A DNA stretch of 64,000 nucleotides from an uncultured Gammaproteobacteria bacterium (GCA_964561945.1 CAZLQM010000003.1:1954-65953), one strand, 5' to 3'. Shown: positions 38,658 to 50,039, counted from the stretch's first letter. Numbers and translations are program-made. The notes: generated from the letters alone by a model not told the origin.

Positions 38658-39090
38658 CAGTTTGGTCGATGCGTTTGGATTGTCCTTGAGGATCGATTGA
38701 GAAGAAAGTTAGATAATTGCTACCTTGAGTAAGTTTGATTTCGGTTTCAAATTCACCTTTTTCATTGGGCATTGTGGAAAGAGTATTGTTTTCGTTGATG
38801 ATTACAACCTGATCGTTTTTGGAAGTGAACCCGCGGATGATTAAGTTATCGTCGTTAACTAGTGCGTGAGGATAGGGATTAACAATGGTTAAACTTGATT
38901 GGTCTTGTGGAGGGGCATCGGTGGGTTCGTTAGATTTGGGAGTAGGTGAGTCTTGAGTTATGGTTGTAGGTTCAGGGGAGACGGTGGCTTGGTCTTTGAG
39001 TGAGCGAGTTGCGGTTACGATGCCATACATAACGATTATGCCTACAGCAAAACCCACAACGATAGGAATGATCATTTCTTTGTTCATCAT
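38638..39090 (-). CDS. membrane-anchored hypothetical protein
   Basis: N-terminal TM helix, Pro/Thr-rich linker; overlaps the downstream gene start. Confidence 0.35.
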   Translation of the reverse strand: MMNKEMIIPIVVGFAVGIIVMYGIVTATRSLKDQATVSPEPTTITQDSPTPKSNEPTDAPPQDQSSLTIVNPYPHALVNDDNLIIRGFTSKNDQVVIINENNTLSTMPNEKGEFETEIKLTQGSNYLTFFSIDPQGQSKRIDQTVVYSTN

Positions 39091-39186
39091 TGGGAGAATA
39101 TCATGATGGAATGGTGGTGTCCAGAGTTTGAGGTCAAAGTAGATGGGACTTGAGATTTGGCTCGTAGGTGTTTAGAATGCCAGTAC

Positions 39187-39843
39187 ATGGATATTGTTTA
39201 TTTAGGTCATTCTTGTTTTAAATTACGGGGTAAAAATGCAGTAGTAATAACTGATCCATATGATAGTGAGATGGTAGGTTTGAAGTTGTCTAAACAACAA
39301 GCTGATATTGTAACCGTGAGTCATGATCATGGTGATCATAATTATCTTGAAGCTGTTAAGCCTAAGAGTGAGGATCATGTAGTAGTATTTGATACTCCTG
39401 GTGAATTTGAGTCTAAGGGGGTTGATGTGCGGGGTTGGAGGACATATCATGATGACAAACAAGGTGAATTGCGAGGTAAGAATATTGTTTATTTAATTGA
39501 AGTAGATGGAATTAGAATCGTACATTTGGGTGACTTGGGACATATGATTAGCGATGAAATTATCGATGCTTTGGGAGATGTGGGGGTATTAATGGTTCCA
39601 GTGGGTGGACATTACACAATTGATGCGGTAATGGCGATGAGCATTGTTAAGAAGCTTGAACCACGAATTGTAGTCCCAATGCATTATTATGATGCGGGAA
39701 TGAATGGTGAGAAGTTTGGTGAATTGGCACCGTTGTCGGTTTTTATGAAAGAAGCTGGGGTTGAAGTTGAGCCTGTAGAGAAGCTTAATTTGCAAGTTGG
39801 ATCTTTGCCGTTAGACACGACTTATGTTGTGTTGCAATCATAG
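39187..39843 (+). CDS. MBL-fold metal-dependent hydrolase (UPF0173-like)
   Basis: HDHGDH metal-binding motif; the ORF track starts at TTG 39157, ATG 39187 more likely. Confidence 0.7.
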   Translation: MDIVYLGHSCFKLRGKNAVVITDPYDSEMVGLKLSKQQADIVTVSHDHGDHNYLEAVKPKSEDHVVVFDTPGEFESKGVDVRGWRTYHDDKQGELRGKNIVYLIEVDGIRIVHLGDLGHMISDEIIDALGDVGVLMVPVGGHYTIDAVMAMSIVKKLEPRIVVPMHYYDAGMNGEKFGELAPLSVFMKEAGVEVEPVEKLNLQVGSLPLDTTYVVLQS

Positions 39844-39849
39844 TTGATT

Positions 39850-41163
39850 ATGGCGGGCGTTAAGATCCCTCCACACAGTGAGGATGTAGAGGTGTCGGTG
39901 CTGGGAGCGGTGTTGATTGATAAGGATACTTTTATAGATTTAGCCGGTTGGTTGAAGAGTGAACATTTTTATAATGTGGGGAATAGTGCGATTTATGAAG
40001 TTATGTTGGAGTTATATGAAAACCGACAGCCGATTGATGTGGTGACTGTGAGCGAAGGACTAAAGAAAAACAAAAAACTCAAAGCCGTGGGGGGATTGAG
40101 TTATTTGACTGAGTTGACGACTAAGGTGCCTGTTGCTGCAAACGTAGTTGAGTACGGCAAAATTATTCGTGATTATTCGATTAAGCGAAATCTGATTGCT
40201 GTGGCTGGCAAATTAGCTGATGCAGGATTTAATGATAGCGTGGCGGCGAAAGAGTTATTGGATCAGGCGGAGTCTGATGTCTTTAGTTTATCTGATCAGG
40301 GTACAACTAAGTCGTTTATTTCGGTACGTGAGGTATTATCTGGGAGTTTTGATCGGTTGGATGAATTGCAGAAACATGCAGATGGATTGCGGGGTGTGCC
40401 GACTGGATTTACAGATTTGGATGATGCATTAGCTGGGATGCAGGACTCGAATTTGTTGATTTTGGCAGCTCGACCTGGAACGGGTAAAACATCATTGGCT
40501 TTGAATTTGGCGCATTATGTGGCGGTTGAGAAACATATTCCCGTGGGGATATTTTCGTTGGAAATGAGTAGTGAGGAACTGACTGACAGGTTGCTGGTGT
40601 CTCAAGCAGATATAGACGCCTGGAAGTTAAAGACGGGACGGCTGGGAAGCGATGATTATGCGAGGTTGACTGATGCGATGGGAGTATTGGCCGAGGCTCC
40701 TTTGTATATTGATGATACGCCTGGTTTGTCGATATTAGAAATTAGGACTCGGGCAAGACGATTAAAAATGTCTACAGGTGTGAGGTTGATTTTGGTAGAT
40801 TATTTGCAGCTAGTTCATGCCTCGCGCAAGACTGATAGTCGGGTACAAGAAGTGGGAGAAGTTTCGCAGGGGTTGAAAAATATTGCTCGAGAATTGAAGA
40901 TACCTGTGCTGGCGGCGGCACAGTTGTCACGCGCAGTGGAACAGAGAGGTACCAAGAAGCCTCAGTTGTCTGACTTGCGTGAATCAGGCTCGATTGAGCA
41001 AGATGCCGACGTGGTGATGTTTCTGTGGCGAGAAAATGATGATGATTTGGAGCGAGTTAATCTGTCGATTGAGAAGCATAGGAATGGACCACTGCGAACT
41101 GTGCCGTTATTCTTCCGTGGAGATAGGATTAGGTTTTATGGGATGGATACTAAGCATAAGTAG
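39850..41163 (+). CDS. dnaB: replicative DNA helicase
   Basis: Walker A ARPGTGKTSLALNLA; DnaB N- and C-terminal domain pattern; ~437 aa. Confidence 0.9.
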   Translation: MAGVKIPPHSEDVEVSVLGAVLIDKDTFIDLAGWLKSEHFYNVGNSAIYEVMLELYENRQPIDVVTVSEGLKKNKKLKAVGGLSYLTELTTKVPVAANVVEYGKIIRDYSIKRNLIAVAGKLADAGFNDSVAAKELLDQAESDVFSLSDQGTTKSFISVREVLSGSFDRLDELQKHADGLRGVPTGFTDLDDALAGMQDSNLLILAARPGTGKTSLALNLAHYVAVEKHIPVGIFSLEMSSEELTDRLLVSQADIDAWKLKTGRLGSDDYARLTDAMGVLAEAPLYIDDTPGLSILEIRTRARRLKMSTGVRLILVDYLQLVHASRKTDSRVQEVGEVSQGLKNIARELKIPVLAAAQLSRAVEQRGTKKPQLSDLRESGSIEQDADVVMFLWRENDDDLERVNLSIEKHRNGPLRTVPLFFRGDRIRFYGMDTKHK

Positions 41164-41430
41164 AAGAGTTGTACATTGACTTGAACTTGTCGATTATTTT
41201 TATACACAGAGAGAGATCTTTAGCTTTGTTCTGAATGACGTTTTAAGCCTTGAGGAAAATAATCATGACTTTTTGATTTGATAAGAATTGTGTTAAGGAA
41301 GTGCAGGATGACGAAGATTGTGAGTGGGATGATGGGGTTAGTAGACAAATAGGGTTTGGCGTCGTTTTAAATATAATTTAGATTATTTAATAAGGATAGG
41401 TATGTTGAATGATTTGATTTTTAGACAAAA

Positions 41431-41462
41431 AAAGCCCGCGGCTACTCAGCCGCGGGTGGTGG
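41431..41462 (-). terminator. rho-independent terminator (GCCCGCGGCT/AGCCGCGGGT stem) for the 41470..41733 gene
   Basis: perfect 10-bp GC stem; an A-run on + means a T-run after the stem in the minus-strand transcript. Confidence 0.6.
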
Positions 41463-41469
41463 GTGGAAT

Positions 41470-41733
41470 TTATTTTCTCCCGAAGAGTATGGCATTGGCT
41501 TTGTGCGTTGATTCTTGGATAAACATTTTTCCGATGAGAGATGCAATCTCGTAATCGCTTGTGCCAATGTCCTCGAACGTCGAGTGAGAGGCTGTCATAA
41601 AGTACAGCATCTTATCAAGATGTTTGAGTTGTTTTTTGGAGTTTTTGGCTTTTCGTAGTTTAATGAGTTGCTTTTGCGCGATTTCTCTAAATTCAGTGTG
41701 TTGTTTTTTGAGCCATTCGTCAAAGTAGGTCAT
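41470..41733 (-). CDS. hypothetical small protein (87 aa) driven by conserved regulatory element E1
   Basis: AAGGAGAG RBS; conserved promoter/operator element upstream; terminator downstream. Confidence 0.45.
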   Translation of the reverse strand: MTYFDEWLKKQHTEFREIAQKQLIKLRKAKNSKKQLKHLDKMLYFMTASHSTFEDIGTSDYEIASLIGKMFIQESTHKANAILFGRK

Positions 41734-41786
41734 TGCTCTCCTTAAGTTTTAAAGGTTCCACCTGTGACTCTATGATTGAAGAGCCA

Positions 41787-41835
41787 ATCCTGATTAGGAC
41801 GGATATATTATAGGATAAAAGATATAGAAAGTCAA
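41787..41835 (-). promoter_or_regulatory. conserved promoter (TTGACT-N16-CTATAAT) plus palindromic operator ATCCTaatcAGGAT and hairpin-GGTGGAAC leader (copy E1)
   Basis: same element found upstream of 60772..61341 and 61586..62125. Confidence 0.55.
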
Positions 41836-41844
41836 AATTATAGG

Positions 41845-42360
41845 TTGAGAATTGTTGGGGAGTTGTGGCATAGTCTTATAATGGCAAAAATAGTGGGGTT
41901 TATATTTTTGGTTGGGGTGATAGTTGGAGGATGGTTTTATCTGCGGAGTGAGAGGGTTTTGTCGGAGGTTGAAAGGGATGATTTGATAAAAAATGCACGA
42001 GAGTATTTATCCAGTAATCCAATAGTCGAGAATAGCAACAATCGTGTGAAATTAGATCAGTATTGGGAACAATCACATTTGGGGAGAGATGAGTCGAGAA
42101 GATTTGATAGTGAATGGATTGATGGTAATGATCCTCTAGTTTATCCGATGGGCGGAGATAAATGGGGAGTGGTGTGGAAGGGAATGCCTGGATGTAAGCT
42201 GGTAGAGCCTTTGGAACTTGGATATGAACCTGTGTTGGTGGATGAGAGCGGTAAAGTTTGTGGGACTTGGTGGCAAATAACTGTGGAGATTGATAATAAG
42301 ATAGAGCAGAGGAGTCTTGTGATTCGGGAAATAGGATATGGTGAGGATTTGGAGTTGTAG
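41845..42360 (+). CDS. hypothetical protein with N-terminal TM helix
   Basis: 171-aa ORF. Confidence 0.35.
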   Translation: MRIVGELWHSLIMAKIVGFIFLVGVIVGGWFYLRSERVLSEVERDDLIKNAREYLSSNPIVENSNNRVKLDQYWEQSHLGRDESRRFDSEWIDGNDPLVYPMGGDKWGVVWKGMPGCKLVEPLELGYEPVLVDESGKVCGTWWQITVEIDNKIEQRSLVIREIGYGEDLEL

Positions 42361-42422
42361 AGAGAGCAAAAAGTAAAAAGCACCATACTTGTCGAGTATG
42401 GTGCTGGAGTATATATGTGGGT

Positions 42423-42791
42423 TTATCCGCGGTGAATCCACCAGCCGATTAAACCGTTGATTTGGATGGGGTCTATGCGTCCACCATGAATGGTGAATTC
42501 AAGCTCTCCGCGGGATGAGGAATTAATTCTCATATAAACACCTGACTGGGTGTTTTCTATGAAAAGTTCGCCCGCTGGGTTAGTGTAAACCTTTAAGCGA
42601 CGATGATTGTCGATGTAGCAAACTGGGAAAGGAGAATCATCATATGTTTCTTCCTTCTTTTCTTCAGCCAGGTAGAATTCCTCGTCGCTCATAACCATCT
42701 CCTTTGGGTGTAAAGTGCGATTTTCGTTAAAACGAAGACTTCTGGTGTTCAGAAGTTGAGTGATTATAGTGTAGTCATATCCAGAAGTCAA
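42423..42791 (-). CDS. hypothetical protein
   Basis: 122-aa ORF. Confidence 0.3.
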   Translation of the reverse strand: MTSGYDYTIITQLLNTRSLRFNENRTLHPKEMVMSDEEFYLAEEKKEETYDDSPFPVCYIDNHRRLKVYTNPAGELFIENTQSGVYMRINSSSRGELEFTIHGGRIDPIQINGLIGWWIHRG

Positions 42792-42914
42792 TTGTTATAG
42801 GTTAGTTGATGGAATTTAATCTTTGATATGTTTTGGATGGTGAGATATAGAGAAGTTAAATGATTTAAAGTCTAGGTTTGTTTCATTGTTTAGGAGGCTG
42901 GCGTGGAGAATTAA

Positions 42915-43250
42915 TTATTTTTTTGACAAAAAAATCCACGACTCGGGAGAGTCGTGGAAGATAGTCGATCGGAGAAAATTAGCTGTTCCACCCTTTGCAG
43001 GTTCTGGACGCAACTTGTCTTTTAGCCTGTTGAGTTCCTGAAGTTTTTTAGGAAGTGTTTCAATTGGCTCCAAACCATTAAGTATCGTCAGTTCGTTGAT
43101 TGTGACTTCGCCTGTTTGAATAGCTTCGGTTATTTCAAGAATAGTTTTTTCTGCGTAAGTCTGATCCTTTAGCGCTTGGTTACCGTCTTCAGCCTGTAGC
43201 CATCGGATTTTTGCATTGATATCGTCGAGTGCTCTAGATCCAATTACCAT
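42915..43250 (-). CDS. hypothetical protein
   Basis: 111-aa ORF; a terminator-like hairpin (CCACGACTC/GAGTCGTGG) lies within its 3' end. Confidence 0.3.
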   Translation of the reverse strand: MVIGSRALDDINAKIRWLQAEDGNQALKDQTYAEKTILEITEAIQTGEVTINELTILNGLEPIETLPKKLQELNRLKDKLRPEPAKGGTANFLRSTIFHDSPESWIFLSKK

Positions 43251-43391
43251 TATTATTCTCCTTGTGAAAGTACTATCTGAGTTTGGTTAGATTACTAAAC
43301 TAATCCCAGAAGCTGGGATGAAGTAAAGTTCAATAGGTATTTATTGTGCGTTTGTTTGACGAAATCCGAACCTTTTTTGAACGGAACTGAC

Positions 43392-43470
43392 GGCGCGCTT
43401 CGCGCGCCAAACTGAACACTCGGGCGGGCAAAAAGGAAGGGGGTTAGGGGGAAGGAATTTTTGCCCGCCC
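43392..43470. repeat. GC-rich structured element: palindrome GGCGCGC-TTC-GCGCGCC plus a 13-bp-stem hairpin GGGCGGGCAAAAA/TTTTTGCCCGCCC with a mirror-repeat loop
   Basis: read directly; GC content far above the surrounding ~40%. Confidence 0.6.
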
Positions 43471-43519
43471 TCGCTTTCCGCCGCCGCCGAATTTCGTGCC
43501 AACGAAGTTGGTGCGCCGC

Positions 43520-44497
43520 CTATTTATCAAATTTCAAAAAATATTCTTTCGGTTTGGACTCTCGCTCTATTATATCATTCCAACTCGGTTTTACATCTGA
43601 AACTCTTTTGATTTTTCCCTCATGCCAACAAAAGGGATTCACTACTCGCGATTTACAAAAAACTTTTCCATTGTAATTATTCGGATCGTTTCTGAAACCG
43701 ATTTTATTATTCATTCTATCAAACAATAAACTTAATTGTGAATCTGTCTTAATGTGCGGCTCTATTTTTTCCAAAACAATTTTATCGGTAGTATACAAAT
43801 CGGTTTCAGAAATATAGTTTTTTGAAAGTGCATAACGAAGATAATCGCCAACAGTTCGAAACATAACCGCAGAGAGCGGTCCAGCATAATAATCTGTGTT
43901 TAGCTTCAAAAATAACTCAGCGTATTTTTCAGCACTTTCAAAATCTTTAAAAATCCACTTTCCATTTTCCGCTAAAAGATTATCAGTAAAATATTTTCCA
44001 TTTTCTATTTCTCTAAAAACAGTAGCGGTTCTTAACGAGTAATCAATTCTATCCGCACATAAATCCGGCAAATCTTTTTCTTTTAGCGGAAAATTTTTGT
44101 CGTCTAAAATGTAATCTAAATCCAAATTGTATTTTTTGAGTATTTCGGGAATTTCTGATTTTCTAACAAATTCGTCAAAAACATTATCTTGATGATTATG
44201 TTCTTTTTCAGAGCCAGCGTCTAAAACATAATCTATACAATGAGAAAAAGCCGAGTGCGAAACATCGTGAATAAGTCCGGCAATTTGTTCTTCAATCGGG
44301 CGCACCGTACATTTTAAAAGCAAATAAACGCCGATTGAATGTTCAAAACGAGAATGTGCGGTTCCGGGAAAATGAGGCTCAAAATAGCCAGCTTGGTCTA
44401 CTTCCTTTAATCGCTGAAAAGTTTTGGAATTTATCAATTCCAAGATTATCGGTTCCTCAATTTCAAAATTTCCATATACTCGGTCTGTGTATTTCAT
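43520..44497 (-). CDS. HD-domain phosphohydrolase of the SAMHD1/dGTPase-like dNTP triphosphohydrolase type
   Basis: HSRFEHSIGVYLL, HDVSHSAFSH and ADRIDYSLR correspond to the three signature motifs of dGTPase/SAMHD1-like HD enzymes. Confidence 0.6.
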   Translation of the reverse strand: MKYTDRVYGNFEIEEPIILELINSKTFQRLKEVDQAGYFEPHFPGTAHSRFEHSIGVYLLLKCTVRPIEEQIAGLIHDVSHSAFSHCIDYVLDAGSEKEHNHQDNVFDEFVRKSEIPEILKKYNLDLDYILDDKNFPLKEKDLPDLCADRIDYSLRTATVFREIENGKYFTDNLLAENGKWIFKDFESAEKYAELFLKLNTDYYAGPLSAVMFRTVGDYLRYALSKNYISETDLYTTDKIVLEKIEPHIKTDSQLSLLFDRMNNKIGFRNDPNNYNGKVFCKSRVVNPFCWHEGKIKRVSDVKPSWNDIIERESKPKEYFLKFDK

Positions 44498-44500
44498 AAT

Positions 44501-44887
44501 TTATTTTAATCTTTTAACAAGTTCTGCCGGCGAAGAAATTATTTCTCTAAATAAAACATGACGACATAATTCTTCGTCGCCCGTTAGTGCATAAATTGGT
44601 TTTCCAGTCGCTACTGCATAGCCGATTTCCAAAGTCGTACTATTTCCAGCATATCCGTCTTTGTTAAAAACAAAAACCACATCGGCCATTTGTATTTTGT
44701 AAAAATGGTCATGAGTTAGCCCAAGAGCAACAAATTTTTTGTAATCGTCTGATAATTCCGCCCATTCATCTTGTCCGGAATGTAAATATGGTTCAAACAC
44801 AACAACGCCGAACTCTTTTAGTTTTTTGCCAAATTCTCGCATTTCTGGTTTAAAGCGGCGACTGCCGCAAAGGACTACTGTTTTCAT
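44501..44887 (-). CDS. nucleoside 2-deoxyribosyltransferase / DNPH1 (Rcl)-like N-glycosidase family protein
   Basis: VVLCGSRRF and ADVVFVFNKDGYAGNSTTLEIGYAVATGKPIYAL align with the DNPH1 motifs YFCGSIRG and ADVVVAEVTQPSLGVGYELGRAVA..KPILCL, including the catalytic Glu. Confidence 0.55.
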   Translation of the reverse strand: MKTVVLCGSRRFKPEMREFGKKLKEFGVVVFEPYLHSGQDEWAELSDDYKKFVALGLTHDHFYKIQMADVVFVFNKDGYAGNSTTLEIGYAVATGKPIYALTGDEELCRHVLFREIISSPAELVKRLK

Positions 44888-44892
44888 AATGT

Positions 44893-45099
44893 TTATTTTA
44901 TTAACTCTTCTATTGAAACGCCCAGCGCTTTGGCAATTTTTGCCATAGTTTGGACGCTTGGCTTATTAACAGTGCCGCCTTCGACTTTCATAAGCGTTGT
45001 ATATTTAATATCCGCTTTCTTGGCTAAATCGTCTTGGGTCAAGCCAAGTTTAGCCCGTGCTTTCTTTATATTTTCGCTGATTGTTTTTCCACTTGTCAT
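44893..45099 (-). CDS. XRE-family helix-turn-helix transcriptional regulator
   Basis: 68 aa; LGLTQDDLAKKADIKYTTLMKVEGG HTH_3 pattern; first gene of the 3-gene operon. Confidence 0.75.
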   Translation of the reverse strand: MTSGKTISENIKKARAKLGLTQDDLAKKADIKYTTLMKVEGGTVNKPSVQTMAKIAKALGVSIEELIK

Positions 45100-45146
45100 A
45101 TAAATAAAGTTTTGGTAGTATTATAGTATATAAGGTTATTACCTTT

Positions 45147-45161
45147 CCGCGCTTCGCGCGG
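45147..45161. repeat. GC-rich palindrome CCGCGC-TTC-GCGCGG, related to the one at 43392
   Basis: shares the GCGCTTCGCGC core with the left-flank element. Confidence 0.55.
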
Positions 45162-45197
45162 CCGAATCGGTCGGCAAAATTCCTGAAAGTTTGATTG

Positions 45198-45284
45198 TGG
45201 TGCCGGGGGCGGGAATCGAACCCGCACCTAGTTGCCTAGACAGGTTTTTGAGACCTGCGCGTCTGCCAGTTCCGCCACCCCGGC
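45198..45284 (-). tRNA. tRNA-Leu (anticodon CAA), type II with long variable arm, CCA encoded
   Basis: reverse complement folds as acceptor GCCGGGG/CCCCGGC, anticodon stem CAGGT/ACCTG with loop CUCAAAA, variable-arm stem CTAG/CTAG, T-arm GCGGG-TTCGATT-CCCGC. Confidence 0.85.
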
Positions 45285-45423
45285 TTGGGTAAAAATGTTG
45301 TTAATTTTTAAACTTAGAAACTAAAAAGTTTTTTGACTGCACTTGAAATGATAAGATGTTGGGTGCGTGCTTTTGAGCGTATTTTATTATACAATAGGTT
45401 GGTTGGAAATATAAAACAAAAAT

Positions 45424-46008
45424 ATGATTGGTGTAACTGAATTACGTGCTGGGACAGCGTTTCGATTGGATAATCAGTTATGGGTAGTGGTGAAGTATGA
45501 GCATGTCAAAATGGGTCGAGGAACGGCAACGATTAAGATCAAAGCTCGTAATTTGGAAAGCGGATCAGTGGTAGAAAAATCGTTTATATCGGGAGCTAAG
45601 GTAGAAGAGGCAAATACCATGCGCAGAGAAATGACTTTTTTGTATGCGGATGGAGATAATGTGGTGATGATGGACCCGCAGTCTTATGAGCAATTTATGA
45701 TACCGCAAAGCCTCTTGGAGGATGAGATGGTTTATTTGAAAGAAGGAGAAAACGTAGTTGTGCTTATGGTAAATGAAGAGGATGGAGCAAGAGCTTTGAC
45801 GATAGATTTGCCACCGAAGATGACCTTTGTGGTGGCTGAGGCAGATCCTGGAGTTAAGGGAGATAGCGCTGCTAATATGTTAAAAAAGGCTAAACTTGAG
45901 AACGGCATGGAAGTTAAAGTGCCGTTGTTTATCAAAGTTGGAGAAAGAATCAGAATTGATACTCGAACTGGTAACTATGTGGAACGAGCCAATGATGAGG
46001 GCAAGTAG
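45424..46008 (+). CDS. efp: translation elongation factor P
   Basis: 194 aa; KOW-like N-terminus ...VKMGRGTATIKIKARNLESG. Confidence 0.9.
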   Translation: MIGVTELRAGTAFRLDNQLWVVVKYEHVKMGRGTATIKIKARNLESGSVVEKSFISGAKVEEANTMRREMTFLYADGDNVVMMDPQSYEQFMIPQSLLEDEMVYLKEGENVVVLMVNEEDGARALTIDLPPKMTFVVAEADPGVKGDSAANMLKKAKLENGMEVKVPLFIKVGERIRIDTRTGNYVERANDEGK

Positions 46009-46061
46009 TTATTTTTTTTGAGTAAGATTAATTTGTGTTAGGATGAGCTAGGATAAATATT

Positions 46062-46763
46062 ATGATGGGCAATTTATTATTTGTTTTGAGTTGGATTGCA
46101 GTATTGGTGGTCGGACCTTTTTTGATTTGGCGTAGGATTAGGGATGAATATAACGATGAAGATGTAGTTAAATTACTGTTAATTCTTATTGTTTTTAGCC
46201 TGGTTGGGGCAAAGGGTTTTGGGGTGATTGGGTGGTTGGCAATAAGTGGCTGGAAAGTAGGGAGTAATTGGTGGATGGATAGTAGACTAGATATTTGGGG
46301 TGGAGTAATGGCTGGAATGGTAGGGATGTGGTGGTATCACTTGGATCGTGCTCGAGGTTTGACGGGGGATGTTGAGGATGCAATAGCTGAAGGATATTGG
46401 TGGGTGTTAGTGATTTTGGCGTTGGGGCGAGAAGTCGCTAGATTAATGGAGGGAAACTGGGCTGGGTTGGGGTGGGTGTTGATTTGGTTGGTGGGATTAG
46501 GAGCTTTTTATTGGGTACGAGGGAAATATCGTCAGTTTAGTTGGTATCCAAGTGGTAAGGTGGGATTTGTGTTTTGGTGTTCGATGATTTTTGTTGGATT
46601 GGGGTACAGTGTGTGGGCATTTATGAGTGGGAATATATTGTTAGGATTTGGGAGGTTTGTGTTTGGTTTTGGGACCACGATTTTTGGGTTAATTGGTTGG
46701 TATCGCAGATCTGGACGCAAGGTGCGTAAGGATTTTGGGTGGTTACCTGGAGTAAGATTTTAG
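46062..46763 (+). CDS. polytopic membrane protein, distant Lgt-like (prolipoprotein diacylglyceryl transferase family?)
   Basis: Gly/Trp-rich TM protein immediately upstream of lspA; motif conservation weak. Confidence 0.35.
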   Translation: MMGNLLFVLSWIAVLVVGPFLIWRRIRDEYNDEDVVKLLLILIVFSLVGAKGFGVIGWLAISGWKVGSNWWMDSRLDIWGGVMAGMVGMWWYHLDRARGLTGDVEDAIAEGYWWVLVILALGREVARLMEGNWAGLGWVLIWLVGLGAFYWVRGKYRQFSWYPSGKVGFVFWCSMIFVGLGYSVWAFMSGNILLGFGRFVFGFGTTIFGLIGWYRRSGRKVRKDFGWLPGVRF

Positions 46764-46765
46764 CC

Positions 46766-47173
46766 ATGAAGAATGTTTTGGATAGGTATGGATTGATTGT
46801 TGTAGGATTATTAGTTTTTGGGTTGGATCGATGGACTAAGTTTTATATATTAAACAATGGTTGGGAATATGTGATGAACGAGGGCGGAGTTTGGGGATTG
46901 CATCAAGGTTTGGACTGGCGATGGGTGAGTTTGGTAGTAATTGCTGGATTGGTGGTTTATGTGATGAGGCAGAAAATGAGTTTGAAATATCAAATTGGCT
47001 ATGGAATGGTAATTGGTGGAGGATTGGGAAATCTATATGATAGATTAACTCTGGGGGCGGTAATTGATTGGATTGGGTTGGTGGATTGGTTTGCATGGTT
47101 TAATATAGCTGATATGGCGATTAATGTTGGATTGGGGTTAATAATTTTTTGGACTTTTTATGGAAAACGATAA
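46766..47173 (+). CDS. lspA: lipoprotein signal peptidase II
   Basis: LDRWTKFY, NEGGVWG and VIDWIGLVDWFAWFNIADMAINVG match the LspA conserved boxes; the ORF track starts at GTG 46739, ATG at 46766. Confidence 0.8.
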   Translation: MKNVLDRYGLIVVGLLVFGLDRWTKFYILNNGWEYVMNEGGVWGLHQGLDWRWVSLVVIAGLVVYVMRQKMSLKYQIGYGMVIGGGLGNLYDRLTLGAVIDWIGLVDWFAWFNIADMAINVGLGLIIFWTFYGKR

Positions 47174-47924
47174 TGATTTGTTAATAGTGTTTAATAAATA
47201 TTTTCCAATTGATCAGGAGATAAAAATAGTTGAGGAGAATGATGAAATGCTTGTTATAAATAAACCTGTTGGCGTGGTGGTAAACGATGCTGTGAGTGCC
47301 AGGGGAATGACAGTACAGGCATGGATGGAAGAGAGATACGATTTTGGATCAGGTCCTGAAGTTGCGCCTGAGAAGTATAAAGACTGGGATGGTGTTAATT
47401 ATCTTGCTTTTTGGGAGAGAGATGGTATGGTGCATCGGCTAGATAAAGAAACTAGTGGATTGTTAGTTTTGGCCAAAAATCCTGACAAATTTGTAGAGTT
47501 GTTAAAAATTTTTCGGGAGCGTGAAGTACGCAAAACTTATTATGCATTGGTGCATGGTGTCCCTGTCAATTTGGAAGGGGAGATTGATGCACCCGTGGGA
47601 AGATTGCCTTGGAATAGGGTGAGATTTGGAGTGTTTCCTGGGGGTAGACAAGCGTTAACGAGTTATAAAGTGATAAATATTTGGAAAAAGGTAGCAATTG
47701 AAGGAGTGGCGGGGAGATATGATTTTGCGTTGGTTGAGGTCAAACCCCACACTGGGCGGACTCATCAGATTAGAGTGCATATGCAGTTGTTGGGAACTCC
47801 GATTGTGGGAGATGAGTTGTATAGTGGGCGGAAATTATTGCGAGCAGGGCGGAAACTGTGGAAGCGAATGTGCTTGGTGGCGGGGAAGTTGGAGATGGAG
47901 GGGAAGATATGGGAGATGGTTTAG
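47160..47924 (+). CDS. RluA-family pseudouridine synthase
   Basis: HRLDKETSGLLVLAKN catalytic-Asp motif. Confidence 0.8.
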   Translation: MENDNDLLIVFNKYFPIDQEIKIVEENDEMLVINKPVGVVVNDAVSARGMTVQAWMEERYDFGSGPEVAPEKYKDWDGVNYLAFWERDGMVHRLDKETSGLLVLAKNPDKFVELLKIFREREVRKTYYALVHGVPVNLEGEIDAPVGRLPWNRVRFGVFPGGRQALTSYKVINIWKKVAIEGVAGRYDFALVEVKPHTGRTHQIRVHMQLLGTPIVGDELYSGRKLLRAGRKLWKRMCLVAGKLEMEGKIWEMV

Positions 47925-48029
47925 TGGCTTAAGGTACAATTTTGAAATTTATTCATATGAATGAACGGTTATATTTTTTATTGTTTATAGTTGCTAATAG
48001 GGGAAGCGTGGGGTGGATGGGTATGATAA

Positions 48030-48512
48030 TTAGGGTTTACATATTCCACTGATACAGCTTATCGGGGAGCAACACGTTGATGATCCTCCACAAGTTTCTC
48101 CAACTTTTTGGCAGGGGACGGGGGTTGGGGTAGGTACAAACTTAGGTGTAGGTATTGTTGATGCTGGTGGGGGAGTAAAGATTGAGCCTGGGGCTTGGAA
48201 GACTGAGATACCAAGGAAGTACTGGACAAGGAGAGCAATGGTGTAGGTTAGTGAGAGAACTGCAAAGCCAAAGAGGCAGTTGGTGATTTTGGTTCTGGAT
48301 GAGCTGACGGTGTTAGTATCACCACCTGAGTTAATCCATTGGACTCCGTAGATGATAATACACATAAAGAGTATAAGAGCTCCGATGATGAGTGACCAAC
48401 CTATGGCTTGAGAAATTAAGCCAAAGACATCAGTAATTTGGAAGGAGGTTTGAAGTTTTGGGTTACGTAGTTCAACATCAAGATTAGAGACTATGGTTGC
48501 GTAGAGCCACAT
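48030..48512 (-). CDS. pilin-like (VirB2/TrbC-like two-TM N-domain) protein with Cys-rich C-terminal tail; short paralog
   Basis: first 143 aa identical to 48600..49922; tail CCSPISCISGICKP. Confidence 0.45.
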   Translation of the reverse strand: MWLYATIVSNLDVELRNPKLQTSFQITDVFGLISQAIGWSLIIGALILFMCIIIYGVQWINSGGDTNTVSSSRTKITNCLFGFAVLSLTYTIALLVQYFLGISVFQAPGSIFTPPPASTIPTPKFVPTPTPVPCQKVGETCGGSSTCCSPISCISGICKP

Positions 48513-48521
48513 ACGCTAATG
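48081..48521. repeat. direct repeat copy 1 (~440 bp, identical to 49491..49930)
   Basis: read directly; covers the 5' end and start codon of the pilin-like paralogs. Confidence 0.8.
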
Positions 48522-48599
48522 TTAGAAGTTTGGAGATTTTAACTCAAGGAGAGAAAAATGTGATTGTAGTTGGGTTGGAGAAGAAAGTGGATAATTAAT

Positions 48600-49922
48600 T
48601 TAAGGTAGTGGAGTAGGGGTTGGTGTGGGTGTTGGGGGTGGAGGAAGGACTGGTAATGTAGTTGGATCAGCTTGTGGTCCTGCATTAGCATCGCAGTTTT
48701 GGTATGCATTGGATACCATGCCTGGACTAAACTCTTCATTGTCATCAGCGTAATAAATGACTTCGTCTATGTATCCTTGAAATTCTCCTCCCCAATCGCT
48801 GGTGTTAGTATAACCACCAATTGTTAGTGGATTGTTTAATGGGGTGCTGAATGCCGGATTTATTGTTGATGTACTAGTTTGTAGACCATTTATATATGTG
48901 TTAATTGTATTTGTAGTTCTGTTGAAGGTTAACATGACATGTGTCCATGCTGGTGGGGTGGTAGAAATTGATGTTTCTTCAATTTTAAATATTCCACCAT
49001 AATTTGTGTAAGAAATTCTAAAATTTCCATTTGCTATTATACTTCCTTTATCTTCTAACTTTGGTACATCAGGCTTAATCCAAGCACCCATAGCCATAAA
49101 GTTCATACTAGTTTCGTTGATTCCAGTTCCGACAATTTCTCCTCCAGCCACTCCTCCATAATAATACATGCTTCCTCCACAACCACCGGCATTGGGTACC
49201 CATACGTTATTTCCTGTTCCGTATTCTTTTATCAAAGTTTTTGCTTCGGTTTTGGTTATTGGATTAGTAAAGGTTAGTGTTGCTGTAGAACCAGAGATAT
49301 TAATTACTGGTGTATCTTTGTGGTTAAAATAATAAAAGTAACTTGGATTATTTACTGCTGTCGCTGGAGGTGGTAGCGTGCCACCTGCGGGTGGGGGAAC
49401 AATTGGTGGTGGGGGAATAATTACTGGAGCTATGTTGTAACCGCAAGTTGAGACTATAGGGGTACAAGTTAATCCTGTACAACAATTTAGTGATCCTCCA
49501 CAAGTTTCTCCAACTTTTTGGCAGGGGACGGGGGTTGGGGTAGGTACAAACTTAGGTGTAGGTATTGTTGATGCTGGTGGGGGAGTAAAGATTGAGCCTG
49601 GGGCTTGGAAGACTGAGATACCAAGGAAGTACTGGACAAGGAGAGCAATGGTGTAGGTTAGTGAGAGAACTGCAAAGCCAAAGAGGCAGTTGGTGATTTT
49701 GGTTCTGGATGAGCTGACGGTGTTAGTATCACCACCTGAGTTAATCCATTGGACTCCGTAGATGATAATACACATAAAGAGTATAAGAGCTCCGATGATG
49801 AGTGACCAACCTATGGCTTGAGAAATTAAGCCAAAGACATCAGTAATTTGGAAGGAGGTTTGAAGTTTTGGGTTACGTAGTTCAACATCAAGATTAGAGA
49901 CTATGGTTGCGTAGAGCCACAT
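48600..49922 (-). CDS. pilin-like N-domain fused to Cys-rich spacer, LamG/concanavalin-A-like lectin domain and Pro/Thr-rich tail (putative adhesin)
   Basis: two TM helices; CQKVGETCGGS..CC..C..C; LamG-like region with aromatic/Gly-rich beta-strand pattern; PTPTPTPLP tail. Confidence 0.45.
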   Translation of the reverse strand: MWLYATIVSNLDVELRNPKLQTSFQITDVFGLISQAIGWSLIIGALILFMCIIIYGVQWINSGGDTNTVSSSRTKITNCLFGFAVLSLTYTIALLVQYFLGISVFQAPGSIFTPPPASTIPTPKFVPTPTPVPCQKVGETCGGSLNCCTGLTCTPIVSTCGYNIAPVIIPPPPIVPPPAGGTLPPPATAVNNPSYFYYFNHKDTPVINISGSTATLTFTNPITKTEAKTLIKEYGTGNNVWVPNAGGCGGSMYYYGGVAGGEIVGTGINETSMNFMAMGAWIKPDVPKLEDKGSIIANGNFRISYTNYGGIFKIEETSISTTPPAWTHVMLTFNRTTNTINTYINGLQTSTSTINPAFSTPLNNPLTIGGYTNTSDWGGEFQGYIDEVIYYADDNEEFSPGMVSNAYQNCDANAGPQADPTTLPVLPPPPTPTPTPTPLP

Positions 49923-49930
49923 ACGCTAAT
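49491..49930. repeat. direct repeat copy 2 (~440 bp)
   Basis: identical to 48081..48521. Confidence 0.8.
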
Positions 49931-50039
49931 AGTAGAAGTTTGGAGATTGAAACTCAAGAAGAGATTTGAATAGTAATTATTTTTTTCAGCTTCTTCTCAT
50001 ATTGATGTTTTAGAATGACAGATTATATATTGATGTTAT

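What the first reader, a model, noticed from the sequence alone, without database searches (positions are those of the whole stretch)
43380..45290. Candidate undescribed nucleotide-destroying module: XRE regulator + DNPH1/deoxyribosyltransferase-like N-glycosidase + SAMHD1/dGTPase-like HD hydrolase, next to tRNA-Leu
Three tightly packed minus-strand genes (gaps of 5 and 3 nt) form an operon. They sit between two GC-rich palindromic elements and immediately beside tRNA-Leu(CAA), a classic integration hotspot. The HD protein carries the three SAMHD1/dGTPase-type motifs (HSRFEHSIGV, HDVSHSAFSH, ADRIDY), which predicts dNTP triphosphohydrolase activity (dNTP to deoxynucleoside plus triphosphate). 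The 128-aa partner aligns well with the DNPH1/Rcl and nucleoside 2-deoxyribosyltransferase family (VVLCGSRRF; ADVVFVFN...LEIGYAVATGKPIYAL), whose members cleave the N-glycosidic bond of deoxynucleosides or deoxynucleotides. Acting in sequence, the pair would irreversibly convert dNTPs to free base plus deoxyribose. dGTPase-family enzymes are established phage-defence effectors through dNTP depletion (established knowledge). A fixed operon pairing with a DNPH1-like glycosidase under an XRE switch is, as far as I know, undescribed (inference). The island context argues for an accessory conflict system rather than housekeeping salvage.
Basis: partly seen in the sequence, partly recalled or inferred. 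Interest (0 to 1): 0.85.

Follow-up and report, generated by a model that had tools for sequence, protein, structure and literature searches.

The report
Mobile-cassette cargo: dNTPase plus deoxyribosyltransferase-like enzyme

Summary
OBSERVATION CONFIRMED. The minus strand carries XRE (44893-45099), an NDT-superfamily protein (44501-44887) and a SAMHD1/EF1143-like HD hydrolase (43520-44497). The gaps are 5 and 3 nt. The genes lie between tRNA-Leu(CAA) and a GC-rich hairpin element.

FAMILY CALLS HOLD, WITH ONE LIMIT. They are supported by Pfam, PDB sequence search and AlphaFold/Foldseek. The 128-aa protein is an NDT/DNPH1-superfamily member, not specifically DNPH1.

PAIRING IS NOT FIXED.
- Of 32 distinct close NDT genes, 8 are followed by HD, 9 by a NUDIX hydrolase and 14 by something else.
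- Only 6 of 72 distinct HD genes keep an intact NDT upstream. Several more keep NDT remnants.

MOBILE CONTEXT IS STRONGLY SUPPORTED.
- The cargo proteins are 70-96% identical across hosts whose DnaB is 45-48% identical.
- HD and NDT genes sit within 110 nt downstream of co-oriented tRNA genes about 10 times more often than other ORFs.
- Complete copies are bounded by 100-195-nt inverted repeats and adjoin a large serine recombinase unit.
- The window copy has lost the recombinase and one repeat.

DEFENCE ROLE IS UNPROVEN.
- PADLOC does not hit either enzyme, and there are no close phage relatives.
- The same frame carries NUDIX, MazG, queuosine-salvage, AlkD-like and MGMT-like genes, and once an Mrr type IV restriction enzyme.
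- Unregulated solo copies are common.

MOST LIKELY ROLE: nucleotide-pool salvage or sanitation carried as mobile cargo. dNTP-depletion defence remains a live rival.

The parts
45198..45284 (-). tRNA-Leu(CAA). Its 3' end ...GGCACCA directly abuts the left end of the inserted element.
   Evidence: ARAGORN; Rfam RF00005, 58 bits; junction sequence.
45142..45197 (-). Left-end remnant (A'): CAATCAAACTTTCAGGAATTTTGCCGACCGATTCGGCCGCGCGAAGCGCGGAAAGG, with two short GC hairpins. It matches the outer ~50 nt of the inverted repeat that flanks the serine-recombinase unit in related loci. The rest of that unit is deleted here.
   Evidence: The same sequence follows GCACCA of tRNA-Lys in L044 and of a B-element terminus in L015 and L063. 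114-124-nt inverted repeats flank the recombinase gene and start inside tRNA-Val or tRNA-Ala 3' ends in L065 and L010. The junction shows microhomology, AAAGGTA versus AAGGGTA.
45100..45141 (-). XRE upstream region (TAATAACCTTATATACTATAATACTACCAAAACTTTATTTAT). It contains a TATAAT and is the presumed promoter/operator.
   Evidence: Identical sequence lies upstream of XRE in L063. The simple sigma-70 scan did not flag it, so promoter function is inferred.
44893..45099 (-). XRE/Cro-C1-type HTH regulator, 68 aa, HTH domain only.
   Evidence: PF01381, E=7.7e-15. PADLOC HTH_VI, control-protein and CapH models, E 1e-10 to 1e-11. 91-97% identical copies head other cargo sets in L063, L065 and L067.
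44501..44887 (-). NDT/DNPH1-superfamily ('DrHyd') protein, 128 aa. Candidate nucleophile is E87 and candidate acid is D60. The G8-S9-R10-R11-F12-K13 loop is invariant.
   Evidence: PF05014, 34.5 bits against a cut-off of 28.8. In the alignment to NDT 6evs, E87 falls on the catalytic Glu and D60 on the ND motif. AlphaFold pLDDT 83; best folds are NDTs, 7m5h, DNPH1 and YtoQ, TM 0.6-0.72. Invariant columns. dN/dS 0.02-0.09.
43520..44497 (-). SAMHD1/EF1143-type HD-domain phosphohydrolase, 325 aa; putative dNTP triphosphohydrolase. Key residues: R50, H53, H77, D78, H81, H86, D149, R150, Y153.
   Evidence: PF01966, 25.7 bits against a cut-off of 22. phmmer: SAMHD1 1e-15, 2HEK 3e-15, EF1143 9e-12, with the motif residues aligned. 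AlphaFold pLDDT 88; Foldseek finds EF1143 (3irh), TMq 0.77, E 2e-11. dN/dS 0.05-0.11.
43347..43519 (-). Right-end element (B'), read 5'->3' on the minus strand:
- hairpin 1 (CCAAC/GTTGG, 43499-43511);
- a 13-bp GC stem enclosing a 23-nt polypyrimidine loop (43422-43470);
- palindrome GGCGCGCGAAGCGCGCC (43392-43408);
- terminal motif ...GTTCCGTTCAAAAAAGGTTCGGATTTCGTCAAACAAACGCA ending at 43347.
In complete copies an inverted second copy lies upstream of XRE. That copy is missing here.
   Evidence: 98% identical to L063 and 94% to L065, and 100% over the outer 44 nt to L015, while HD synonymous sites differ at 52%. Inverted pairs flank the cargo in L001, L009, L056, L063, L067, L077 and others. 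34 such hairpins were found in 1.45 Mb against 0-1 in shuffles. B' is unique in the window. No Rfam family matches.

Best explanation
The region is a truncated, probably immobilised copy of a Patescibacteria-specific mobile cassette inserted directly after the CCA end of tRNA-Leu.

ELEMENT LAYOUT. Complete relatives read: tRNA | [inverted repeat - large serine recombinase - inverted repeat] | [inverted repeat - XRE - cargo - inverted repeat]. The window keeps only ~50 nt of the recombinase unit's repeat, the XRE-led operon and the right-hand repeat.

CARGO (family level shown; activity inferred). The cargo is two separately selectable nucleotide-pool enzymes.
- An EF1143/SAMHD1-type HD hydrolase, which most likely converts dNTPs to deoxynucleoside plus triphosphate.
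- An NDT/DNPH1-superfamily enzyme that uses Glu87 to break the N-glycosidic bond of a deoxynucleoside or, more likely given its invariant basic loop, a nucleotide. It would then release or exchange the base.
- The 68-aa XRE protein presumably represses its own operon.

PAIRING. The pairing is facultative, however. Each enzyme is maintained alone in many genomes under strong purifying selection, and the NDT-like gene is found with a NUDIX hydrolase as often as with HD.

ROLE (inferred). The repeat-bounded XRE cassettes also carry NUDIX, queuosine-salvage and AlkD-like genes, and MazG, MGMT-like and ASCH genes lie next to HD in other loci. The most likely selected role is therefore salvage or sanitation of scavenged, possibly non-canonical, nucleotides in organisms that cannot make nucleotides de novo. 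A dedicated abortive or depletion-type defence system is less likely.
For: ENZYME FAMILIES..

FACULTATIVE PAIRING
- Of 32 distinct close NDT genes, 8 are followed by HD, 9 by NUDIX and 14 by something else. 6 of 72 distinct HD genes have an intact NDT upstream.
- Remnants of the NDT 3' end or the XRE 3' end lie between tRNA and HD or NDT in L066, L073, L085, L058 and L016.

HORIZONTAL SPREAD
- In the same loci DnaB is 45-48% identical while the cargo is 70-90% identical.
- Neighbours differ between loci.

LONG-TERM SELECTION. dN/dS is 0.02-0.11, with dS 0.6 to above 2.

tRNA ASSOCIATION
- 17/68 HD and 8/56 NDT genes lie within 110 nt downstream of a co-oriented tRNA, against 21/1150 other ORFs (p=8e-13 and 3e-5).
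- At least 12 isoacceptors are involved.

ELEMENT ARCHITECTURE..

RECOMBINASE. A large serine recombinase is present in 13 loci.

SALVAGE/SANITATION CO-CARGO. NUDIX, MazG, Q_salvage, DNA_alkylation, MGMT DNA-binding and ASCH.

NO DEFENCE-MODEL HITS. PADLOC does not hit HD or NDT.

NO REGULATOR NEEDED. Solo copies without XRE lie directly behind tRNA genes. This argues that the enzymes are not toxic effectors needing tight control.
Against: - No enzymology exists. The substrate of either enzyme is inferred from family membership only.
- The element family also carries bona fide defence or selfish nucleases in the same slot: Mrr type IV REase in L074 (E=1e-90), HNH in L075 and T5orf172 in L056.
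- A SocA/Panacea pair lies downstream in L001.
- The XRE resembles restriction-modification control proteins and CapH.
- The cassette was found in only 45 of 185,579 species representatives, with a pattern-seeded and therefore insensitive search. Rarity plus mobility is typical of defence cargo.
- The Tyr that NDT and DNPH1 carry in strand 1 is absent (V5), so the chemistry may differ.
- tRNA-adjacency counts are dereplicated only by protein sequence and are not phylogenetically independent.
- Mobility has not been observed. No excised or empty site was recovered.
Confidence: 0.45

Rival explanations
1. This is a dedicated anti-phage (or anti-MGE) module. Under XRE control, the HD dNTPase and the NDT-like glycosidase irreversibly destroy dNTPs (dNTP -> dN -> base + deoxyribose) and starve invading DNA of precursors.
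For: - SAMHD1/dGTPase-type dNTP depletion is an established antiviral strategy (established knowledge; discussed in PMC9478638, found).
- NDT-like (DrHyd) domains are known defence effectors, for example the retron Ec86 effector (PMC13276650; PMC9503650).
- The cassette is mobile, patchy, tRNA-associated and XRE-led, and the XRE hits PADLOC control-protein and CapH models.
- In L074 a type IV restriction enzyme occupies the slot between XRE and HD.
- A different NDT-like family (138 aa) also sits between XRE and HD in L077 and L088.
Against: - Neither enzyme matches any PADLOC model. NCBIfam dGTPase equivalogs score far below their cut-offs.
- The pairing is present in a minority of loci.
- Many HD and NDT copies lack XRE and sit 8-100 nt behind tRNA genes, presumably constitutively expressed.
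- The co-cargo is mostly salvage or repair enzymes.
- There are no defence genes in the window flanks.
- dS is near saturation, so the genes have been kept for a long time in each lineage. This is not the rapid turnover typical of defence islands.
Confidence: 0.27
2. The NDT-like protein is a DrHyd-type NAD+/ADP-ribose-processing enzyme, and its partners (NUDIX or HD) process the products. This would make the module a toxin-like or signal-degrading system rather than a deoxynucleotide pathway.
For: - DrHyd superfamily members act as NADases or ADP-ribosyl cyclases in conflict systems, and NUDIX enzymes process ADPr derivatives (PMC9503650).
- The retron Ec86 NDT-like effector depletes NAD+ (PMC13276650).
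- NUDIX is the most frequent immediate neighbour of the NDT-like gene: 18 loci, median gap 7.5 nt.
- The many invariant basic residues would suit a pyrophosphate-containing substrate.
Against: - Solo, apparently unregulated copies are common. That is hard to reconcile with an NADase toxin.
- The closest structural matches are true deoxyribosyltransferases and DNPH1, not ADP-ribosyl cyclases.
- No sensor or immunity partner recurs.
Confidence: 0.08
3. The module is an ordinary, vertically inherited housekeeping salvage operon at a conserved dnaB / tRNA-Leu / efp locus.
For: - Strong purifying selection.
- Housekeeping genes surround it in the window.
Against: - The same genes lie behind at least 12 different tRNAs and in unrelated neighbourhoods.
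- The cargo is much more conserved than DnaB in the same genomes.
- It is bounded by repeat elements shared at 94-100% identity with distant genomes.
- It has lower GC than its flanks.
- It is rare among species representatives.
Confidence: 0.03
4. The enzymes serve the mobile element itself or tRNA biology. For example, they could condition the nucleotide pool for element transfer or replication, or act on tRNA-derived modified nucleotides. On this view the tRNA adjacency reflects function rather than insertion preference.
For: - The link to tRNA 3' ends is striking.
- A queuosine-salvage gene lies in the same cassette frame in L009.
- The non-coding end element is more conserved than synonymous sites.
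Against: - The tRNA identity varies freely.
- The enzymes persist after the element's recombinase and repeats have decayed. This indicates a benefit to the host rather than to the element.
Confidence: 0.1

Closest known systems
EF1143 (Enterococcus faecalis) / SAMHD1 family of HD-domain dNTP triphosphohydrolases
   Same: - HD metal site and the additional catalytic His/Arg/Tyr residues are aligned: R50, H53, H77, D78, H81, H86, D149, R150, Y153.
- Whole-chain fold match, TMq 0.75-0.77 to 3irh, 2o6i and 2hek.
   Different: - Only 16-20% identity.
- 325 aa against 370-630 aa, so about 100 or more residues are missing, possibly the allosteric or oligomerisation parts.
- Thr replaces the Asp equivalent to SAMHD1 D319; the D319 numbering is from memory and was read off the alignment region.
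- Activity is untested.
Dgt-type 'dGTPase' anti-phage defence genes (Tal et al. 2022; PADLOC/DefenseFinder models)
   Same: Same superfamily and the same proposed chemistry (dNTP depletion).
   Different: - Not recognised by PADLOC.
- NCBIfam dGTPase equivalogs score 13-18 bits against cut-offs of 393-494.
- A different clade, EF1143/SAMHD1-like rather than Dgt.
Nucleoside 2'-deoxyribosyltransferases (PF05014) and DNPH1/Rcl, MilB/BlsM N-glycosidases
   Same: - Passes the PF05014 gathering score.
- Catalytic Glu (E87) and Asp (D60) align.
- Same fold.
- A basic loop after strand 1, as in the phosphate-binding DNPH1 and MilB (PMC10603095; correspondence inferred).
   Different: - No sequence-level hit to any DNPH1 chain.
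- No aromatic residue at the strand-1 Tyr position.
- The phosphate-binding Ser six residues before the Glu (S98 in DNPH1) is Gly81 here.
- Only 128 aa.
Tycheposons: tRNA-targeting, cargo-carrying integrative elements of Prochlorococcus (bioRxiv 10.1101/2020.12.28.424599)
   Same: - Cargo cassettes accumulate directly downstream of tRNA genes.
- Some tycheposons use a large serine recombinase.
- The cargo is niche-adaptive metabolism or defence.
- Decayed, integrase-less remnants build islands.
   Different: - Here the units are bounded by long (100-195 nt) structured inverted repeats, not by partial-tRNA direct repeats.
- One near-identical left end abuts several tRNA identities at the shared GCACCA.
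- There is no replication module.
- The units are 2-4 kb.
- Mobility has not been demonstrated.
Mobile insertion cassettes / MITE-like elements (transposase-less units with terminal inverted repeats carrying passenger genes); named from my own knowledge
   Same: Passenger genes lie between long terminal inverted repeats with no recombinase inside.
   Different: - The repeats are unusually long and structured, with a GC stem and a polypyrimidine loop.
- No target-site duplication was found.
- The neighbouring candidate mobilising enzyme is a large serine recombinase with its own, different inverted repeats.

Membership tests
HD superfamily (PF01966) | H...HD...D metal-binding motif and a profile score above the Pfam gathering threshold. 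| tested here: met
   25.7 bits against a cut-off of 22. H53, H77-D78 and D149 are present and invariant in 39 homologues.
SAMHD1/EF1143-type dNTP triphosphohydrolase | Sequence and fold similarity to characterised members across the catalytic lobe, with the extra catalytic residues (Arg before the first His; HDxxHxxxxH; DRxDY). | tested here: met
   phmmer: SAMHD1 1e-15, EF1143 9e-12, with the motifs aligned. Foldseek: 3irh, E 2e-11, TMq 0.77.
SAMHD1/EF1143-type dNTP triphosphohydrolase | dNTP -> dN + PPPi activity, allosteric nucleotide activation and a tetrameric assembly. | not testable with these tools
   Needs enzymology. The protein is about 100 or more residues shorter than characterised members.
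Defence dGTPase (Dgt family; PADLOC / NCBIfam dGTPase) | A match to the family HMMs at their thresholds. | tested here: not met
   No PADLOC hit at E<=0.1. NF002329 scores 18 bits against a cut-off of 494.
Nucleoside 2-deoxyribosyltransferase family (PF05014) | A profile score above the gathering threshold, and the catalytic Glu nucleophile plus Asp. | tested here: met
   34.5 bits against a cut-off of 28.8. E87 aligns to the Glu and D60 to the ND motif of NDT 6evs. E87 is invariant and D60 is at least 90% conserved.
Nucleoside 2-deoxyribosyltransferase family (PF05014) | Strand-1 Tyr (Y7 in NDTs; Y24 in human DNPH1). | tested here: not met
   Strand 1 reads K2-T3-V4-V5-L6-C7-G8 with no aromatic residue. 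The residue numbering for Y7 and Y24 is taken from the PDB entry titles. The HMMER alignments do not cover this segment, so the correspondence is by inspection.
DNPH1/Rcl 2'-deoxynucleoside 5'-phosphate N-hydrolase | Sequence relationship to DNPH1, and the phosphate pocket (S98, six residues before the catalytic Glu, and S128' from the partner subunit; PMC10603095). | tested here: inconclusive
   No DNPH1 chain is found by phmmer or hmmsearch at E<=10. Fold similarity only, TMq 0.60-0.68. Position E-6 is G81, while S83, T84 and T85 and the invariant S9-R10-R11 loop could bind phosphate (inference).
DrHyd-type NADase / retron NDT-like effector | NAD+ glycohydrolase activity, and association with a sensor or retron partner. 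| not tested
   No RT, msr/msd or sensor gene lies in any neighbourhood examined. Activity cannot be tested here.
Type II toxin-antitoxin (XRE antitoxin + toxin) | The toxin gene is not maintained without its antitoxin, and the antitoxin has a toxin-binding extension. | tested here: not met
   Most NDT and HD genes lack an adjacent XRE. The XRE is 68 aa, HTH domain only.
tRNA-targeting integrative element (tycheposon-like) | Insertion adjacent to tRNA genes, with a site-specific recombinase at one end. | tested here: met
   tRNA adjacency is enriched about 9-18-fold. A large serine recombinase unit lies between tRNA and cargo in L065 and L010, and beside the cargo in L001, L009 and L063. The recombinase is absent from the window.
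tRNA-targeting integrative element (tycheposon-like) | The element is flanked by direct repeats consisting of a partial copy of the target tRNA. | tested here: not met
   Only GCAC(CA) is shared between the tRNA 3' end and the element's far end. The flanks are long inverted repeats instead.
Integron gene cassette | A promoterless ORF with an attC site next to an IntI tyrosine recombinase and attI. | tested here: not met
   No tyrosine recombinase lies in any locus neighbourhood clustered. The cassettes carry their own XRE and upstream region and are bounded by inverted copies of one element.

The most novel reading that the evidence does not exclude
Patescibacteria harbour a so-far undescribed family of small cassette elements.
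- They insert at the GCACCA 3' end of many different tRNA genes.
- They are bounded by ~100-195-nt structured inverted repeats: a GC stem presenting a CCUCC-rich loop. These repeats are kept more strictly than synonymous sites.
- They are moved or inverted by an adjacent large serine recombinase unit.
- They ferry XRE-controlled 'base-editing of the nucleotide pool' enzymes (HD dNTPase, NDT-like glycosidase, NUDIX, MazG, Q-salvage). These protect the cell from phage or foreign non-canonical nucleotides, which would be a defence by nucleotide destruction or sanitation that no current defence catalogue contains.
Probability: 0.15. Interest if true: 0.8.

Novelty: new variant of a known kind. Interest (0 to 1): 0.5.

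Why it matters
Patescibacteria cannot synthesise nucleotides and live on scavenged ones, so how they edit or clean their (d)NTP pools is largely unknown.

- A widely exchanged, extremely constrained dNTPase and an NDT-like glycosidase are concrete, testable candidates for that task, or for dNTP-based restriction of phages.
- The comparative data also expose a recurring insertion system behind tRNA genes, with unusual structured inverted repeats and a large serine recombinase. This could explain how streamlined CPR genomes acquire accessory genes and could yield a new site-specific recombination system.
- The specific claim of a fixed HD-NDT defence pair is not borne out. That saves effort that would otherwise go into testing the pair as a unit.

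Tried and rejected
- Fixed-pair hypothesis. Rejected by neighbourhood counts.
- Rosetta-stone fusions of the NDT-like domain with HD or NUDIX. A search of 1.84 billion representatives found 4720 relatives. The ten multi-domain hits I scanned showed only NeuB and Fic fragments or tandem NDT repeats.
- Phage origin. There are no close relatives in IMG/VR or GenBank phages, and no exact match of the end motif. PHROGs gave only weak hits.
- Empty-site or strain comparison at dnaB/tRNA-Leu/efp. Exact-protein look-ups of EF-P and of a variant returned only short contigs. These break inside tRNA-Leu (window 45232/45254) or inside the B element (43485), so no empty site could be seen.
- B element as a genome-wide REP-like repeat. 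Rejected: the other GC-rich stretches in the window are coding, and B is unique there.
- B element as a known RNA family. No credible Rfam hit, and single-sequence folding is not better than shuffles: z = -0.8 and -0.1.
- RNAalifold on a MAFFT alignment of 13 copies. It recovered only part of the central stem because the alignment is not structure-aware. Evidence for conserved structure therefore rests on the exact-stem scan with five different stem sequences and its shuffle control.
- 'Recent HGT' as the reason for high identity. Revised: dS is 0.6 to above 2, so the transfers are old and the identity reflects strong constraint.
- Literature. No paper describes an HD + NDT module or these elements.

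Full report
1. WHAT IS IN THE SEQUENCE

The three minus-strand ORFs are exactly as described:
- XRE, 44893-45099, 68 aa.
- An NDT-like protein, 44501-44887, 128 aa.
- An HD protein, 43520-44497, 325 aa.

The gaps are 5 and 3 nt. tRNA-Leu(CAA) lies at 45198-45284 on the same strand. The module is AT-richer than its surroundings, 31-37% GC against about 42%.

Two GC-rich elements flank it.
- Downstream of HD lies a 173-nt block (43347-43519) with three hairpins. One is a 13-bp stem around a 23-nt homopurine/homopyrimidine loop.
- Between XRE and the tRNA lies a 56-nt block (45142-45197) with two short hairpins.
- Both blocks contain the 13-mer CGCGCTTCGCGCG. It occurs nowhere else in the 64 kb; 0.01 matches are expected by chance.

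2. FAMILY PLACEMENT

HD protein.
- It passes the PF01966 threshold.
- It is found by phmmer against SAMHD1 (1e-15), Aquifex 2HEK (3e-15) and E. faecalis EF1143 (9e-12).
- The SAMHD1 catalytic positions align: R50/H53, H77-D78, H81, H86 and, through 2HEK, D149-R150-x-D-Y153.
- An AlphaFold model (pLDDT 88) matches EF1143, 2HEK, BT4208 and SAMHD1 over the whole chain, TMq up to 0.77.
- It is not a Dgt-type dGTPase. NCBIfam equivalogs score 13-18 bits against cut-offs of 393-494, and PADLOC has no hit.

128-aa protein.
- It passes the PF05014 threshold, 34.5 against 28.8 bits.
- Its sequence relation to solved structures is weak. The best hit is a bacterial NDT at E=0.05-0.17, and no DNPH1 chain appears even at E<=10.
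- The model (pLDDT 83) matches NDTs first, then the uncharacterised 7m5h, then DNPH1/Rcl and YtoQ, TMq 0.6-0.72.
- E87 aligns with the catalytic Glu and D60 with the ND-motif Asp. E87 is invariant and D60 is at least 90% conserved.
- The strand-1 Tyr of NDT and DNPH1 is absent.
- An invariant G-S-R-R-F-K loop follows strand 1. By analogy with the phosphate pockets of DNPH1 and MilB (PMC10603095), this suggests a phosphorylated substrate. That step is inference.

XRE is an HTH-only regulator. It resembles restriction-modification control proteins and CapH in PADLOC.

3. COMPARATIVE GENOMICS OVERTURNS THE 'FIXED PAIR'

Both proteins have hundreds of relatives at 76-100% identity. These are annotated from many Patescibacteria lineages: Kaiser-, Nealson-, Kerfeld-, Lipton-, Blackburn-, Ryan-, Zambryski- and Uhrbacteria, Saccharibacteria, Berkelbacteria and Levyibacteriota. 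I fetched 45 NDT-seeded genome loci and 80 HD-seeded metagenome loci and analysed them together with eight loci found by exact-protein look-up.

tblastn and ORF clustering show the following.
- Of 32 distinct close NDT genes, 8 are followed by HD, 9 by a NUDIX hydrolase (often as NDT-NUDIX-NDT2) and 14 by something else.
- Of 72 distinct HD genes, 6 keep an intact NDT upstream.
- The exact XRE(+5)NDT(+3)HD arrangement recurs in at least five lineages: the window, the L001 group, L011/L079, L063, and L010 and L012/L081 with a truncated XRE.
- Many solo-HD loci keep remnants. These are truncated NDT genes (L007/L040, L044, L089, L091/L105) or just the last codons of NDT in front of the HD start (L066, L073, L085, L058).
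- This HD clade therefore descends from an NDT-HD unit from which NDT and XRE were repeatedly lost.
- Conversely, the slot between XRE and HD can hold other genes:
  - a different NDT-like protein (L077, L088);
  - MazG-like (L097, L107);
  - an Mrr type IV restriction enzyme (L074; PADLOC E=1e-90);
  - an HNH nuclease (L075);
  - a T5orf172 protein (L056).

Each enzyme is thus selectable on its own.

4. HORIZONTAL BUT OLD, AND STRONGLY CONSTRAINED

In loci that share a housekeeping gene with the window, DnaB is 45-48% identical, while the HD or NDT of the same locus is 70-78% identical. Other shared genes are 24-43% identical against 74-90% for the cargo. The neighbourhoods are unrelated.

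The copies are not recent. dS is 0.6 to above 2 and dN/dS is 0.02-0.11. The genes have therefore been transferred among Patescibacteria and then kept under very strong purifying selection. That argues for a lasting benefit to the host.

5. THE ISLAND CONTEXT IS REAL AND HAS A DEFINED ANATOMY

(a) tRNA association.
- 17 of 68 distinct HD genes and 8 of 56 NDT genes start within 110 nt downstream of a co-oriented tRNA. For other ORFs in the same loci the figure is 21 of 1150 (Fisher p=8e-13 and 3e-5).
- At least 12 isoacceptors are involved.

(b) Inverted repeats around the cargo. Complete copies are bounded by long inverted repeats of the element that follows HD in the window.
- L001: 140 + 44 nt.
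- L009: 99 nt, perfect.
- L063 and L015: similar inverted copies on both sides.

The repeats come in several sequence types. These share a terminal motif (...GTTC(G/T)(A/G)A(C/T)TT...CAAACA(A/C)C(G/A)C(A/C)) and a GC stem presenting a CT-rich loop, TTCCTYCCCC..CCCCYTCC. An exact-stem scan finds 34 such hairpins in 1.45 Mb against 0-1 in shuffles. They have five different stem sequences and occur almost always as inverted pairs around an XRE-led cargo.

(c) Recombinase unit. Between the tRNA and this unit, related loci carry a large serine recombinase (Resolvase + Recombinase + Zn_ribbon). It is flanked by its own 114-124-nt, 99-100% identical inverted repeats, and the outer arm begins inside the tRNA 3' end (L065, L010).

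(d) Shared left end. The outer ~50 nt of that repeat is the sequence between tRNA-Leu and XRE in the window. It always follows GCACCA: tRNA-Leu in the window, tRNA-Lys in L044, and the terminus of a B element in L015 and L063.

The window copy is therefore a deletion derivative. It reads: tRNA-Leu | 50-nt stub of the recombinase unit :: XRE upstream region ... HD | right repeat. The join shows an AAAGGTA/AAGGGTA microhomology. There is no recombinase anywhere in the 64 kb.

The closest described analogue is the tycheposon. These are tRNA-targeting cargo elements, a minority of which use large serine recombinases (bioRxiv 10.1101/2020.12.28.424599). Tycheposons are flanked by partial-tRNA direct repeats, not by long structured inverted repeats.

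Mobility itself was not observed. Contigs of this strain and of ~81%-identical relatives break inside tRNA-Leu or inside the B element. That fits a repeated or variable junction but proves nothing.

6. AN UNEXPLAINED FEATURE

The non-coding right-end element is 98% identical between the window and L063 over 152 nt. The adjacent HD genes differ at 52% of synonymous sites. Where hairpin 1 does differ, it changes by two compensatory pairs, CCAAC/GTTGG against CCAGT/ACTGG.

Two readings are open. The element may be under direct nucleotide-level and structural constraint, as a recombination site or a structured RNA. Or it may spread and homogenise independently of the cargo. No Rfam family matches.

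7. FUNCTION

Shown:
- family membership of both enzymes;
- conservation of the catalytic residues;
- facultative linkage;
- mobile context;
- strong selection.

Inferred:
- HD hydrolyses dNTPs to dN + PPPi.
- The NDT-like enzyme breaks or exchanges the N-glycosidic bond of a (deoxy)nucleotide or nucleoside.
- XRE autoregulates.

Points towards salvage or sanitation of scavenged nucleotides:
- The companion genes in the same cassette frame or position are NUDIX, MazG, queuosine-salvage (PF10343), an AlkD-like DNA-alkylation repair enzyme behind a 97%-identical XRE in L067, an MGMT-like DNA-binding protein and ASCH.
- Unregulated solo copies lie behind tRNA genes.
- These organisms lack de novo nucleotide synthesis (established knowledge for CPR bacteria; for example PMC7304191, listed).

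Points that keep dNTP-depletion defence alive:
- the Mrr enzyme in the same slot;
- the control-protein-like XRE;
- the rarity and mobility of the cassette;
- the known defensive use of both superfamilies.

I put salvage/sanitation cargo at about 0.45 and dedicated defence at about 0.27. The remainder is split among NAD/ADPr chemistry, an element- or tRNA-related role, and the now very unlikely vertical housekeeping operon.

8. NOVELTY AND SCORE

The enzymes are new members of known families. The XRE-NDT-HD combination is not described in the literature I could search. It is, however, one facultative arrangement among several.

It is a tRNA-3'-end-associated, inverted-repeat-bounded cassette system with a large serine recombinase in Patescibacteria.

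Overall verdict: new variant of a known kind, interest 0.5.

Noticed in passing
window 43347-43519; L063 1483-1634 and 3330-3464; L065 6866-7017; L015 117-270 and 1975-2103: The non-coding GC-rich end element is 94-100% identical between genomes whose adjacent HD genes differ at about half of synonymous sites. Hairpin 1 differs by two compensatory base pairs. The element seems to be under its own constraint, or to spread independently.
   Followed up: partly
L065 5191-5304 / 6755-6868; L010 6042-6165 / 7649-7772: A large serine recombinase gene (416 aa) is enclosed by 114-124-nt, 99-100% identical inverted repeats, and the outer arm starts inside the 3' end of a tRNA gene (tRNA-Val, tRNA-Ala). 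It could be an IS-like unit or an invertible segment. The window keeps only a ~50-nt stub (45142-45197).
   Followed up: partly
133 related loci (L001-L133): HD and NDT genes start within 110 nt downstream of co-oriented tRNA genes of at least 12 isoacceptors about 9-18 times more often than other ORFs. Some spacers are only 8 nt (L110, L116), which suggests tRNA-mRNA co-transcription.
   Followed up: partly
L015 204-240 compared with L063 1560-1606: In the L015 variant of the end element, the central hairpin loop is in the opposite purine/pyrimidine orientation relative to the conserved outer 45 nt. This may be a 'flipped' hairpin or a different design.
   Followed up: no
L074 4526-5437: A full-length Mrr-type type IV methyl-directed restriction enzyme (PADLOC E=1e-90) lies between XRE and HD, exactly where NDT sits in the window. 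L075 has an HNH nuclease in that slot and L056 a T5orf172 protein.
   Followed up: partly
L067 869-3074: An XRE 97% identical to the window's XRE, inside the same type of inverted repeats, heads a different cargo: an AlkD-like DNA_alkylation repair enzyme, a Zn_ribbon_2 protein and a small membrane protein.
   Followed up: yes
L009 1478-3903: A cassette XRE-NDT-NUDIX-queuosine salvage protein (PF10343, E=3e-70) lies between perfect 99-nt inverted repeats, next to a serine recombinase.
   Followed up: yes
window 41200-43340: Four small ORFs lie between dnaB and the element: 41470-41733 (-), 41845-42360 (+), 42423-42791 (-) and 42915-43250 (-). None hits Pfam, NCBIfam, PADLOC or PHROGs, and none has a relative in the fetched loci. 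They may be further accessory DNA at this tRNA-proximal site.
   Followed up: partly
window 45232 / 45254 / 43485 (ends of contigs L137, L140, L143, L141, L135): Independent assemblies of this strain and of ~81%-identical relatives break inside tRNA-Leu or inside the GC-rich element. This is consistent with a repeated or strain-variable junction.
   Followed up: partly
L028 6723-6800 and 7821-7898: ARAGORN reports two tRNA-like genes with an abnormal 2-nt 'anticodon' (gt) just upstream of an NDT-NUDIX-NDT cassette. They may be intron-containing or degenerate tRNAs; compare the group I introns in Patescibacteria tRNA genes (PMC13011429, listed).
   Followed up: no
window 38000-50000: GC skew is very strong and positive (0.3-0.7) on the plus strand wherever genes are on the plus strand. 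It collapses to about zero or negative only across the minus-strand insert (43200-45200).
   Followed up: no
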